Assembly: GCF_055900595.2 (NCBI RefSeq)
Contig: NZ_CM148325.1
Direction: 5' to 3' (one strand)
DNA: 64,000 bases
This document shows positions 60,503 through 62,358 of the stretch, piece by piece. Every line of letters begins with the position of its first letter. Positions within the stretch are counted from its first letter, which is position 1. The notes under the pieces were generated by a model. It made no database searches. It saw nothing but the letters and a program-made list of their open reading frames with translations, and was not told the origin of the DNA. The position numbers were made by a program, and so were the translations under genes.

Positions 60503-61729
60503 ATGTCAGGAACTATACGAAAGATAATAAAAGAGGATGATGTATTTCATTCTTCTATTCGCCGTATTGAATGGTTGTTTGAAACATTCTCTTCTGTCTG
60601 TTTGTCTTTTTCCGGAGGAAAAGACTCCACTGTGCTGCTCCATCTTGCGGCTGATGTGGCTCGCAGGAAGAAACGTCGTTTCTCTGTATTATTCATTGAC
60701 TGGGAAGCTCAGTATCAGTGCACCATTGAACATGTTCAGAAGATGCGGGAAATGTACCGGGATGTGACGGATACCTTTTACTGGGTGGCACTCCCCCTGA
60801 CTACGGTAAATGGTGTCTCTCAGTTTCAGCCGGAATGGATATGCTGGGAACCAGGTGTGGAGTGGGTTCGTCAGCCACCAGATGACGCTATTACAGATAT
60901 GTCGTATTTCCCATTTTATCGGTATGCCATGACGTTTGAAGAATTTGTTCCGGCATTTTCTTCCTGGTTTGCCGGTAACCGGTGTGGAGTGGCAATACTG
61001 ACTGGTGTTCGTGCTGATGAATCGCTCAATCGCTTTATGGGACTGGTGTCTCAGCGCAAACTGAGATATGCAGATGATAAACCCTGGACCACAGCGTCAC
61101 CTGAAGGGTTTTATTACACCTTGTATCCGTTGTATGACTGGAAAGCCCGTGATATATGGATATATAACGCCAGAACCCGGGCTATCTACAATCCCCTGTA
61201 TGACCTGATGTACCGTGCCGGCGTGCCGTTACGCAACATGCGGGTCTGTGAGCCTTTTGGCCCGGAACAGCGTAAGGGACTGTGGCTTTACCATGTTCTG
61301 GAGCCGGAAACCTGGGCCAGGATGTGTGAGCGGGTGTCGGGTGCTGCCAGCGGGGCGCTTTATGCCAATGAGAGCGGTGCCTATTTTGCCCTGCGTAAGC
61401 GTATCACGAAGCCACCTCATCATACCTGGCGTAGCTATGCGATGTTCCTGCTGGATGTGATGCCGGAAAGAACGGCAGAACATTACCGTAATAAAATTGC
61501 TGTCTACCTGCGCTGGTATCAGACGCGGGGCTTCCCGGATGACATCCCGGATGAACAGGAGAATGACCTGGGGAGCCGGGATATCCCGTCCTGGCGACGT
61601 ATCTGTAAGACACTCATAAAGAATGATTTCTGGTGTCGGACCCTCTCCTTCAGTCCGAACAAACCCCGGCACTATGAACGTTATCTGCAGCGTATGAAAG
61701 AAAGGAGGAAGGAATGGGGGATTCTGTGA
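60503..61729 (+). CDS. PP-loop ATP pyrophosphatase, PAPS-reductase-like (IbrA-like, DndC-like)
   Basis: 408 aa with PP-loop SFSGGKDSTV; preceded by a strongly AT-rich upstream region; operonic with the next gene. Confidence 0.8.
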   Translation: MSGTIRKIIKEDDVFHSSIRRIEWLFETFSSVCLSFSGGKDSTVLLHLAADVARRKKRRFSVLFIDWEAQYQCTIEHVQKMREMYRDVTDTFYWVALPLTTVNGVSQFQPEWICWEPGVEWVRQPPDDAITDMSYFPFYRYAMTFEEFVPAFSSWFAGNRCGVAILTGVRADESLNRFMGLVSQRKLRYADDKPWTTASPEGFYYTLYPLYDWKARDIWIYNARTRAIYNPLYDLMYRAGVPLRNMRVCEPFGPEQRKGLWLYHVLEPETWARMCERVSGAASGALYANESGAYFALRKRITKPPHHTWRSYAMFLLDVMPERTAEHYRNKIAVYLRWYQTRGFPDDIPDEQENDLGSRDIPSWRRICKTLIKNDFWCRTLSFSPNKPRHYERYLQRMKERRKEWGIL

Positions 61730-62358
61730 CACCTGAGGTGGAAGTATTGAGCAACATGATTCGACAGTACTTCAGTCAGGAACGATCTGAAGAAGAGACC
61801 ATACGAGCCCTTAATCATCTGCGCAGGGTGTTGCATGAGGTCAGCCCTTTTGCACAGGAGCCTGTGGATTGTGTGTTGTGGGTGAAAGCGGATGAGGTGG
61901 TGGCCAACGATTACAATCCCAATGTCATGTCTTCCAGTGAAAAAAAACTGCTTAAACATTCACTGGAGCAGGATGGATTCACGCAGCCTGTGGTGGTTTC
62001 GGAAGAGAAGGAGCATTATCTGGTCGTGGATGGTTTTCATCGTCAGTTGCTGGGCAGGAAAGCGGATACGAGAAAACGTCTGAAGGGCTGGCTGCCAGTG
62101 GCCTGTATTAATCCAGAGAGAAAGGGACAGGCATCACGTATTGCCGCAACCATACGGCATAACCGTGCCAGGGGAAAACACCAGGTAACGTCAATGTCTG
62201 ACATTGTCAGGGACCTCTCACGTCTGGGCTGGACAGATGAGCGTATTGGCACAGAGTTGGGCATGGACCAGGATGAAGTGCTGAGGCTGAAACAGATTAG
62301 CGGGCTGACAGAGCTGTTTCAGGAAGAGGATTTCAGCCCTGCATGGACGGTTCGTTAA
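61714..62358 (+). CDS. ParB/sulfiredoxin-fold protein (IbrB-like, DndB-like)
   Basis: 214 aa with ParB-type motif VVDGFHRQ; AGGAGG RBS at 61703-61708; overlaps the upstream stop by 16 bp. Confidence 0.8.
   Translation: MGDSVTPEVEVLSNMIRQYFSQERSEEETIRALNHLRRVLHEVSPFAQEPVDCVLWVKADEVVANDYNPNVMSSSEKKLLKHSLEQDGFTQPVVVSEEKEHYLVVDGFHRQLLGRKADTRKRLKGWLPVACINPERKGQASRIAATIRHNRARGKHQVTSMSDIVRDLSRLGWTDERIGTELGMDQDEVLRLKQISGLTELFQEEDFSPAWTVR

What the first reader, a model, noticed from the sequence alone, without database searches (positions are those of the whole stretch)
60503..62358. IbrA/IbrB-like operon: PP-loop PAPS-reductase-like enzyme plus ParB-like protein, resembling DndC/DndB
Two overlapping genes behind a strongly AT-rich promoter region encode a PP-loop ATP pyrophosphatase (SGGKDS) and a ParB/sulfiredoxin-fold protein (DGFHRQ). 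This pairing matches the IbrAB regulators reported to control Eib adhesin genes in E. coli, and also the DndC/DndB pairing of DNA phosphorothioation systems. It sits isolated among IS remnants, the same island carries a YadA-type adhesin at 26745, and no other dnd/ssp-like genes are visible. It may be a stand-alone nucleic-acid modification, regulatory or anti-phage module.
Basis: partly seen in the sequence, partly recalled or inferred. Interest (0 to 1): 0.7.

Follow-up and report, generated by a model that had tools for sequence, protein, structure and literature searches.

The report
Known ibrAB regulator gene pair
This is an intact copy of ibrA-ibrB, a gene pair already named in E. coli and common in phages; its biochemistry is unsolved, and comparison with phage relatives suggests an ATP-using enzyme working on DNA, not a sulfur enzyme.

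Summary
Two overlapping + strand genes, 60503-61729 (408 aa, SGGKDS PP-loop) and 61714-62358 (214 aa, DGFHR ParB/Srx motif plus HTH-like tail), lie behind a 25-29% GC stretch and between IS fragments. They are ibrA/ibrB. Identical proteins are annotated in RefSeq, and 2143 of 5426 complete E. coli genomes carry the pair. So the object is already known, though its mechanism is not.

- The pair is a complete unit, not a dnd/ssp/BREX fragment. An IbrB-type ORF lies within 1.5 kb of IbrA on the same strand in 74 of 81 phage loci, usually in replication, recombination or packaging-adjacent modules.
- IbrA keeps an intact PP-loop but has no invariant cysteine. DndC-like, BrxP-like and CysH-like sulfur chemistry is therefore unlikely. 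Its closest solved folds include FMN adenylyltransferase and CysD.
- Phage versions add enzyme-like parts: an unknown ~130-aa domain, free or fused to IbrB; an ectoine-synthase-like cupin fused to IbrB; and an upstream SNF2 helicase.

Best guess: a DNA-bound, adenylation-dependent modification or remodelling enzyme pair, whose reported effect in E. coli is activation of silent prophage genes. Interest is moderate.

The parts
60237..60502 (+). AT-rich non-coding leader upstream of ibrA (25-29% GC); presumed promoter or silencing region, not demonstrated
   Evidence: Composition profile. Promoter-like hits do not exceed shuffles. The sequence does not align with the upstream regions of the CFT073, O157 or PhiR5_2 copies. 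The left limit is the annotated IS3 fragment at 60098-60236.
60503..61729 (+). ibrA: PP-loop ATP pyrophosphatase of the PAPS-reductase family (aa 14-238) plus a helical DUF3440 domain (aa 240-408)
60611..60628 (+). PP-loop motif S37-G-G-K-D-S42
   Evidence: Read from the sequence. G39, K40 and S42 are invariant and S37, G38 and D41 at least 90% conserved in 40 diverse homologues.
61703..61729 (+). Coupling region: AGGAGG (61703-61708), ibrB ATG at 61714, ibrA stop at 61727-61729 (16-nt overlap)
   Evidence: Read from the sequence. Small overlaps of 4 to 17 nt are the most common junction in phage loci with IbrA followed by IbrB.
61714..62358 (+). ibrB: ParB/Srx-type N-terminal domain plus C-terminal HTH-like segment
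   Evidence: ORF. phrog_2159 1e-87. Weak Pfam ParB_N. A family profile hits ParB/Spo0J, Noc and SbnI/SerK in the PDB. dN/dS 0.05-0.23.
62029..62043 (+). D106-G-F-H-R110 motif, aligned with the GERR arginine box of ParB
   Evidence: D106, G107, H109 and R110 are invariant in 14 diverse IbrB sequences. Alignment to H. pylori ParB 4umk.
62155..62181 (+). R148-H-N-R-A-R-G-K-H156, the second signature motif of the IbrB family
   Evidence: N150, G154 and H156 invariant; R148, H149, R151, A152 and R153 at least 90% conserved.
62191..62304 (+). HTH-like C-terminal segment (aa 160-197, ...LGMDQDEVLRLKQISG...)
   Evidence: Conserved block. phrog_6831 'transcriptional regulator' matches aa 160-193. The single-sequence AF2 model shows short helices there, the only part with pLDDT above 70.

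Best explanation
This locus is an intact, selected copy of ibrA-ibrB, a mobile two-gene cassette of phage origin. Shown here: IbrA is a PAPS-reductase-fold enzyme with a canonical, conserved PP-loop and no conserved cysteine. IbrB is a ParB/Srx-type protein with a DGxHR motif and an HTH-like tail. The two genes are translationally coupled and almost always adjacent in phages. Inferred: IbrB binds DNA, probably in a nucleotide-dependent way, and brings IbrA to it. IbrA uses ATP to adenylate an oxygen on DNA (a base carbonyl or a phosphate) and releases pyrophosphate. This activates the position for substitution by a non-sulfur nucleophile, or leaves a transient adduct. In phages this would mark or process replicating DNA. 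The richer versions add an unknown ~130-aa domain, an ectoine-synthase-like cupin, an acetyltransferase or an SNF2 helicase. In E. coli the minimal pair would change the state of AT-rich, silenced horizontally acquired DNA. That would explain the reported need for both genes to switch on prophage eib genes (Sandt et al. 2002, recalled from memory; the paper could not be opened).
Against: No modified nucleotide, DNA binding or ATPase activity has been shown for any family member, here or in the papers I could search. The only phenotype I know of is transcriptional (eib activation). The substrate could equally be RNA, a nucleotide or a small molecule. The DUF3440 domain and domain X have no recognisable relatives, so the target-binding parts are uninterpreted. 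The genomic positions fit other DNA transactions, such as packaging or replication, as well as modification. The IbrB structure could not be modelled well (pLDDT 45).
Confidence: 0.42

Rival explanations
1. IbrB is primarily a ParB-type, nucleotide-dependent DNA clamp that counteracts silencing or activates transcription. VirB of Shigella and KorB of RK2 behave this way (my own knowledge). IbrA would be an accessory enzyme that loads, licenses or tunes it, and DNA would not be chemically modified.
For: The only reported phenotype is gene activation requiring both genes (Sandt 2002, from memory). IbrB has a ParB N-domain whose DGFHR aligns with the ParB GERR box, plus an HTH-like tail. Every E. 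coli copy examined sits behind AT-rich DNA. The O157 copy lies next to a PerC-family regulator. Antirepressor genes recur nearby.
Against: This does not explain why a catalytically intact PP-loop enzyme is the invariant partner. It also does not explain why cupin, GNAT and X domains are fused or inserted. In many phages the pair sits inside early replication operons, not at regulatory nodes. IbrB falls far below the curated cut-offs of ParB family models (22.6 bits against 315 for Noc).
Confidence: 0.25
2. The pair serves the phage's own DNA handling: packaging-site recognition or processing (a small-terminase-like role) or replication start. The E. coli island copies would be domesticated leftovers with side effects on prophage gene expression.
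For: In Akoma the pair directly precedes and overlaps the large terminase gene, where a small terminase usually sits. In FCL-2 it lies between terminase and portal. In Taranis it lies just upstream of terS and terL. In many viral loci it borders replication initiators.
Against: The position varies between phage groups. Taranis has its own annotated small terminase. The E. coli copies are outside prophages yet under strong purifying selection, and occur in 39% of genomes. A PP-loop enzyme has no known role in packaging.
Confidence: 0.12
3. It is a stand-alone anti-phage or anti-plasmid defence module carried on islands and prophages.
For: PP-loop enzymes and ParB/Srx proteins occur in Dnd, Ssp, BREX type 4 and Dpd systems (PMC10853773, PMC12839542; Dpd from my own knowledge). 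The pair is mobile, patchily distributed and kept by selection in non-prophage islands.
Against: No PADLOC-DB family matches either protein beyond PP-loop-level hits (BrxP 2e-7 over 70 aa, DndC 9e-4). IbrB, the long IbrB forms and X give nothing significant. No nuclease or other effector is linked. In phages the genes are co-oriented inside lytic early operons, which is not typical of prophage-borne defence genes.
Confidence: 0.1
4. It is a Dnd/Ssp-like phosphorothioation enzyme pair that borrows the host IscS for sulfur.
For: The superfamily pairing is the same as DndC/DndB. IscS can replace DndA in Dnd systems (PMC10853773).
Against: DndC is defined by a 4Fe-4S cluster on three cysteines plus a cysteine dyad (PMC10853773), and the IbrA family has no invariant cysteine. 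No DndD/E or SspB/C is present. The DndC and DndB models do not match.
Confidence: 0.03
5. It is a genuine PAPS reductase or auxiliary sulfur-metabolism gene, as RefSeq and several phage papers label it.
For: The product name in RefSeq. Phage homologues are described as 'host metabolism' genes (PMC10434257, PMC11318856).
Against: Scores are far below curated cut-offs (34 bits against 154 for CysH, 36 against 195 for CysD). No catalytic cysteine is present (the requirement for a C-terminal Cys in CysH is established knowledge). The obligate ParB partner and the replication-module context also argue against it.
Confidence: 0.02

Closest known systems
IbrA/IbrB of E. coli ECOR-9 (immunoglobulin-binding regulators; Sandt, Hopper and Hill, J Bacteriol 2002)
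   Same: Overlapping ibrA-ibrB pair with the same domain make-up. It is annotated as such on identical or 90%-identical proteins. It is island-borne next to phage-like and IS DNA, and is present in B2 strains such as CFT073 at 97% nucleotide identity.
   Different: The chromosomal site differs: here the island adjoins gdhA-ynjB and carries aerobactin and sit genes. The upstream region is unrelated to those of other copies. Direct identity to the ECOR-9 sequence and the eib-activating function could not be checked.
DndC/DndB of the Dnd DNA phosphorothioation system
   Same: A PP-loop ATP pyrophosphatase of the PAPS-reductase family paired with a ParB/Srx-fold protein carrying a DGxHR-type motif.
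   Different: IbrA lacks the cysteine triad and dyad of DndC. It has a DUF3440 domain instead. IbrB matches no DndB model. There is no DndA, DndD or DndE, and no restriction partner.
BrxP (BREX type 4) and SspD
   Same: PAPS-reductase-family PP-loop domain. BrxP is the best PADLOC hit, at 2e-7.
   Different: The match covers only about 70 residues around the PP-loop. BrxP carries DUF4007, a Mog1p/PsbP-like domain and a cysteine-rich region (PMC12839542), none of which IbrA has. No PglZ, BrxC or cysteine desulfurase is nearby.
Eukaryotic FMN adenylyltransferase (FAD synthase PAPS domain) and CysD ATP sulfurylase
   Different: They are small-molecule enzymes without a ParB partner or DUF3440. 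IbrA scores far below the CysD cut-offs.
ParB-family NTP-dependent DNA clamps used as regulators (VirB, KorB, Noc)
   Same: IbrB shares the ParB N-terminal domain and an HTH-like segment. Noc and ParB are its best PDB and NCBIfam hits. VirB is a precedent for a ParB-like protein that activates silenced AT-rich genes (my own knowledge).
   Different: The GERR box is replaced by DGFHR. IbrB has a family-specific RHNRARGxH motif and is short (214 aa). It is always partnered with an enzyme and not with a ParA.
DpdA/DpdB 7-deazaguanine DNA modification (my own knowledge)
   Same: A ParB-like NTPase partnered with a DNA-modifying enzyme. SNF2-type helicases occur in the same clusters, and the SNF2 neighbour of IbrA gives weak DpdE and DrmD hits.
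   Different: The catalytic partner is a transglycosylase, not a PP-loop enzyme. No preQ0 genes are found near ibrAB.

Membership tests
IbrAB (immunoglobulin-binding regulator pair) | Two overlapping, co-oriented genes in the order ibrA then ibrB | tested here: met
   60503-61729 and 61714-62358, 16-nt overlap
IbrAB (immunoglobulin-binding regulator pair) | IbrA consists of a PAPS_reduct PP-loop domain plus DUF3440 | tested here: met
   Pfam PF01507 plus PF11922 at 8e-25
IbrAB (immunoglobulin-binding regulator pair) | IbrB consists of a ParB-N-like domain plus an HTH-like tail and carries the IbrB-like name | tested here: met
   The identical protein WP_000502867.1 is named IbrB-like.
IbrAB (immunoglobulin-binding regulator pair) | High identity to the ECOR-9 reference proteins | not testable with these tools
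   The reference sequence and paper were not retrievable. Proxies: 90% identity to the PhiR5_2 protein annotated IbrA and 97% nucleotide identity to the CFT073 copy.
IbrAB (immunoglobulin-binding regulator pair) | Both genes together activate eib expression | not testable with these tools
   This needs an experiment.
DndC | 4Fe-4S cluster on three cysteines plus a cysteine dyad (PMC10853773) | tested here: not met
   No invariant Cys in 40 diverse IbrA sequences
DndC | Canonical PP-loop | tested here: met
   SGGKDS, with G39, K40 and S42 invariant and S37, G38 and D41 at least 90% conserved
DndC | Operon with DndD and DndE (with or without DndA) | tested here: not met
   None annotated in the island or recurring in 81 phage loci
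DndC | Match to DndC profile models | tested here: not met
   PADLOC DndC E 9e-4 and 16 bits, with no stretch passing on its own
DndB | Match to DndB or DGQHR-domain models | tested here: not met
   No DndB hit in PADLOC at E up to 0.1, and none in NCBIfam at E up to 0.01
BrxP / SspD | PAPS-reductase domain with DUF4007, a Mog1p/PsbP-like domain and a Cys-rich region; BREX or Ssp partners (PMC12839542) | tested here: not met
   Only aa 26-96 match BrxP. Pfam shows DUF3440 instead. No partners are present.
CysH PAPS reductase / CysD | Score above the curated family cut-off; catalytic C-terminal Cys (CysH) | tested here: not met
   34 bits against 154 (CysH), 36 against 195 (CysD). No conserved Cys.
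ParB/Spo0J partition proteins | GERR arginine box, ParA partner, score above cut-off | tested here: not met
   DGFHR replaces GERR. Noc 22.6 bits against 315. No ParA nearby.
Catalogued anti-phage defence systems (PADLOC-DB 2.0) | Significant match of both proteins to one system's models | tested here: not met

The most novel reading that the evidence does not exclude
IbrAB is the minimal core of a widespread, phage-borne DNA (hyper)modification pathway that is independent of cysteine and Fe-S clusters. A ParB/Srx scaffold would hold a PP-loop adenylating enzyme on DNA. Optional tailoring parts are the unknown X domain, an ectoine-synthase-like cupin, GNAT and an SNF2 helicase. The product would be a chemically new DNA mark that protects phage DNA, and in E. 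coli would act as an epigenetic switch for silenced prophage and island genes.
Probability: 0.3. Interest if true: 0.8.

Novelty: already known. Interest (0 to 1): 0.38.

Why it matters
ibrAB has been a named but mechanistically blank regulator for more than twenty years. It is present in about 40% of complete E. coli genomes, including the ExPEC (CFT073) and O157:H7 strains examined here, and in very diverse phages. It is routinely mislabelled as a sulfur-metabolism gene. If it writes a new DNA mark or remodels silenced DNA, that would add a new enzyme class to phage-host epigenetics. It would also explain how some horizontally acquired surface genes are switched on. This window itself adds no new object. 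The value lies in the constraints found here: no sulfur chemistry, an obligate pair, extra enzyme domains, and cultured phages carrying the extended versions. These make the question testable.

Tried and rejected
- **Literature.** Six full-text searches found no mechanistic study of IbrA/IbrB. The 2002 paper is not held.
- **IbrB structure.** Folding without an alignment gave an unusable model (pLDDT 45), which cost one of the two structure jobs. No fold search of IbrB or X was therefore possible.
- **Long IbrA homologues (493-671 aa).** I suspected IbrA-IbrB fusions. They are IbrA with insertions or extensions, with no IbrB or X part.
- **Domain X in the window.** It is absent from all six reading frames.
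- **Shared upstream operator or promoter among E. coli copies.** The regions do not align.
- **Linkage to the YadA-like adhesin.** Rejected on distribution.
- **Late-gene-activator idea.** I checked what lies downstream in four phage loci. I found replication genes, not lysis or packaging genes, so the idea is not general.
- **Dnd, Ssp, BREX and PAPS-reductase membership.** Rejected as set out in the membership table.
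Full report
**What is there.** The window holds two + strand ORFs exactly as described: 60503-61729 (408 aa) and 61714-62358 (214 aa). They overlap by 16 nt. An AGGAGG at 61703-61708 sits 5 nt before the second ATG, a layout that suggests translational coupling (read). The first protein carries SGGKDS (60611-60628). Pfam finds a split PAPS_reduct domain and DUF3440 (8e-25). The second carries DGFHR (62029-62043) and a weak ParB_N match. 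PHROG matches are 2e-83 and 1e-87. The 300 bp upstream is 25-29% GC against about 50% in the genes. Promoter-like matches do not exceed shuffles, so 'promoter' remains an assumption.

**Setting.** The DNA is E. coli. The 2.3-kb region is 100% identical to many chromosomes. Window 40000-64000 is identical to avian and human isolates. Annotation of those genomes shows a pathogenicity island with aerobactin, sitABCD, sodC, iha and much IS debris. The pair is flanked by an IS3 fragment (60098-60236), a frameshifted remnant (62413-62656) and an IS66 pseudogene.

**Identity.** The identical proteins are RefSeq WP_000017086.1 ('phosphoadenosine phosphosulfate reductase') and WP_000502867.1 ('IbrB-like domain-containing protein'). 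IbrA is 90% identical to the protein annotated IbrA in Escherichia phage PhiR5_2, which is followed by IbrB. AlphaFold DB neighbours are named 'Co-activator of prophage' and 'Immunoglobulin-binding regulator'. The pair occurs in 2143 of 5426 complete E. coli genomes, including 84 plasmid places. Contexts are unrelated to one another: a CFT073 island, an O157:H7 element next to a PerC-family regulator, and a phage next to antirepressors.

The upstream regions of these copies do not align, so the conserved unit is just the two coding sequences. Both genes are under strong purifying selection (dN/dS 0.05-0.23). As I recall the abstract of Sandt et al. 2002 (the paper is not held), ibrA and ibrB are overlapping genes from an ECOR-9 island. 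Together they activate prophage eib genes, and homologues are found in O157:H7 and most B2 strains. This matches what is seen here. The object is therefore already known.

**Is it a fragment of a larger known system?** No. The IbrA family is large: 5655 clusters, and 323 representatives at E below 1e-30 in the 50%-identity library. I analysed 81 viral loci, mostly from IMG/VR. An IbrB-type ORF lies on the same strand within 1.5 kb of IbrA in 74 of them, and two of the seven exceptions are cut by contig ends. Both gene orders occur, and overlaps of 4 to 17 nt are the commonest A-then-B junction. Distant pairs in mycobacteriophage Akoma (gp4/gp5), Flavobacterium phage FCL-2 (gp09/gp08) and Faecalibacterium phage Taranis (gp37/gp38) are true members. 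No Dnd, Ssp or BREX partner recurs. The neighbours are RecE, RecT, DnaB, NinG/Rap, SF2 and SNF2 helicases, replication initiators, primase-helicase and a dNTP pyrophosphohydrolase. In some lineages the neighbours are terminase and portal.

**What IbrA is.**
- In 40 homologues down to 27% identity, G39, K40 and S42 of the PP-loop are invariant, as are D66, E68, T74 and S174. R170, E173, R247, R277, W364 and D375 are nearly so.
- No cysteine is invariant. The E. coli protein has Ala where 32 of 40 homologues have Cys.
- Curated models are all missed by wide margins: CysH 34 bits against 154, CysD 36 against 195.
- PADLOC gives only PP-loop-level hits to BrxP (2e-7, 70 residues) and DndC (9e-4).
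- DndC is defined by a 4Fe-4S cluster on three cysteines and a cysteine dyad (PMC10853773). BrxP has extra domains and a cysteine-rich region (PMC12839542). IbrA has none of these.
- It follows, by inference, that IbrA is an ATP pyrophosphatase or adenylyltransferase that does not do thiol or Fe-S sulfur chemistry. The label 'PAPS reductase', and the 'auxiliary sulfur metabolism' reading in phage papers (PMC10434257, PMC11318856), are not supported for this family.
- The helical DUF3440 domain has no detectable relative.

**What IbrB is.**
- Fourteen diverse sequences share NxYNPN, DG[FY]HR, RHNRARGxH and a C-terminal LGMDxDEVLRLKQ block.
- A profile of them finds ParB/Spo0J, Noc and the ParB/Srx-fold kinases SbnI and SerK in the PDB. 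DGFHR aligns with the ParB GERR box.
- No DndB model matches.
- IbrB is therefore a distinct ParB/Srx clade with an HTH-like tail. Nucleotide binding and DNA binding are inferred, not shown.

**Extra parts in phage versions.**
- A ~130-aa domain, here called X (consensus HPYxKWEDYKAGMY...W.KYSCEHNLTN...GQAA), is a separate gene next to the pair in 22 loci. It is fused to the C-terminus of IbrB in 24. It matches no Pfam, NCBIfam, PHROG or PDB family, and it is absent from the window.
- In five loci, including Mycobacterium phage Gaia gp104, IbrB carries an N-terminal ectoine-synthase-like cupin domain (Pfam 2e-32, NCBIfam 118 bits). X follows as gp106.
- A GNAT gene sits between IbrA and IbrB in one metagenomic contig, and one homologue has a weak GNAT-like tail.
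- An SNF2 helicase lies upstream, at gene offset -1 or -2 of IbrA, in 11 of the 13 loci that carry it.
- Fusions of enzyme-like domains to the ParB scaffold point to a multi-step enzymatic process on or near DNA. The E. coli pair is the minimal form.

**Mechanism.** The best-supported reading (confidence about 0.4) has three steps. IbrB binds DNA and recruits IbrA. IbrA adenylates an oxygen on DNA and releases PPi. This activates the position for a non-sulfur substitution or creates a transient adduct. In E. coli the outcome would be activation of silenced horizontally acquired genes.

The main rival (about 0.25) is a VirB/KorB-like anti-silencing clamp with IbrA as an accessory. It fits the one known phenotype, but not the conserved catalytic residues or the enzyme fusions. 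A packaging or replication role (0.12) fits the terminase-adjacent cases but not the selected, non-prophage E. coli copies. Defence (0.10) has no support from PADLOC or from operon context. Phosphorothioation (0.03) and true PAPS reduction (0.02) fail their defining features.

**The adhesin link.** The YadA-like gene (26844-28385) is followed by a sigma-factor-like HTH gene (28447-28902). It shares only 37% identity over about 190 aa with EibC/D/E. The complete gene pair is found in about 35 genomes, against about 2000 for ibrAB. A specific regulatory tie is therefore possible but unsupported. Phage PhiR5_2 does carry both ibrAB and a YadA-like fragment.

**Verdict.** The object is already known and annotated, so novelty is low. 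Interest is moderate (0.38). The mechanism is an old open question, and this analysis narrows it and names tractable phages carrying the extended system. The window itself adds no new kind of element.

Noticed in passing
window 26844-28385 (+) and 28447-28902 (+): A YadA-like trimeric autotransporter gene is followed by a small 'sigma factor-like HTH' gene. The adhesin resembles EibC/D/E only in its C-terminal part (37% identity over about 190 aa). The complete two-gene unit occurs in only about 35 of 5426 E. coli genomes.
   Followed up: partly
window 62396-62442 and 62398-62656: A perfect 10-nt inverted repeat (AATTGCCTGT ... ACAGGCAATT, 27 nt apart) lies 38 nt after the ibrB stop, at the start of a frameshifted ORF remnant. 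The remnant's '...AELTEHLGHE...' motif looks like the N-terminus of an IS256-type transposase (my reading; RefSeq calls it a hypothetical pseudogene).
   Followed up: no
viral loci L016, L018, L019, L025, L027-L029, L034, L036 and others (free X); L039-L041, L044-L049, L054-L061 and others (IbrB-X fusion): An uncharacterised ~130-aa domain (X) is linked to IbrB by gene fusion in 24 loci and by adjacency in 22. It has no Pfam, NCBIfam, PHROG or PDB relative. Cultured examples are Mycobacterium phage Gaia gp106, Pseudoalteromonas phage XCL1123, Pseudomonas phage Amjad_SA and Microcystis phage Mwe-JY13.
   Followed up: partly
L097 3742-4641 (Mycobacterium phage Gaia gp104); L077-L080, L084: An ectoine-synthase-like cupin domain is fused to the N-terminus of IbrB (Pfam Ectoine_synth 2e-32). 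This is an unexpected small-molecule-type enzyme domain on a ParB scaffold.
   Followed up: partly
viral loci L010, L012, L015, L017, L023, L024 (ORF directly upstream of IbrA): A second small family ('Y', about 120-180 aa, weak phrog_26647 match) occupies the slot just upstream of IbrA in six loci. Its relation to X was not tested.
   Followed up: no
proteins P0222, P0237, P0260 (630-671 aa IbrA homologues): These IbrA homologues are interrupted by insertions of about 40 to 240 residues between conserved blocks. The insertions may be inteins or homing-endonuclease inserts. This was not examined.
   Followed up: no
L093 10874-11143 (E. coli O157:H7 strain 611): In O157:H7 the ibrAB pair is immediately followed by a PerC-family transcriptional regulator gene, and preceded by an AAA-domain protein and a POTRA-domain protein.
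   Followed up: no
window about 55.9-57.4 kb (- strand; ORF 56150-57391): A group II intron reverse transcriptase/maturase (ltrA) is annotated as a pseudogene with an internal stop in a genome identical over the ibrAB region. A further reverse-transcriptase fragment lies at 60003-60089, just upstream of the ibrA leader.
   Followed up: no
window 65-7709: The start of the window is K-12-type backbone: gdhA at 65-1408, and ORFs of ynjC and ynjB size at 5032-6567 and 6540-7709. The genes were assigned by matching ORF lengths to the annotated genome. The island begins after ynjB. The annotated relatives differ from the window by IS-sized indels in the first 40 kb.
   Followed up: partly
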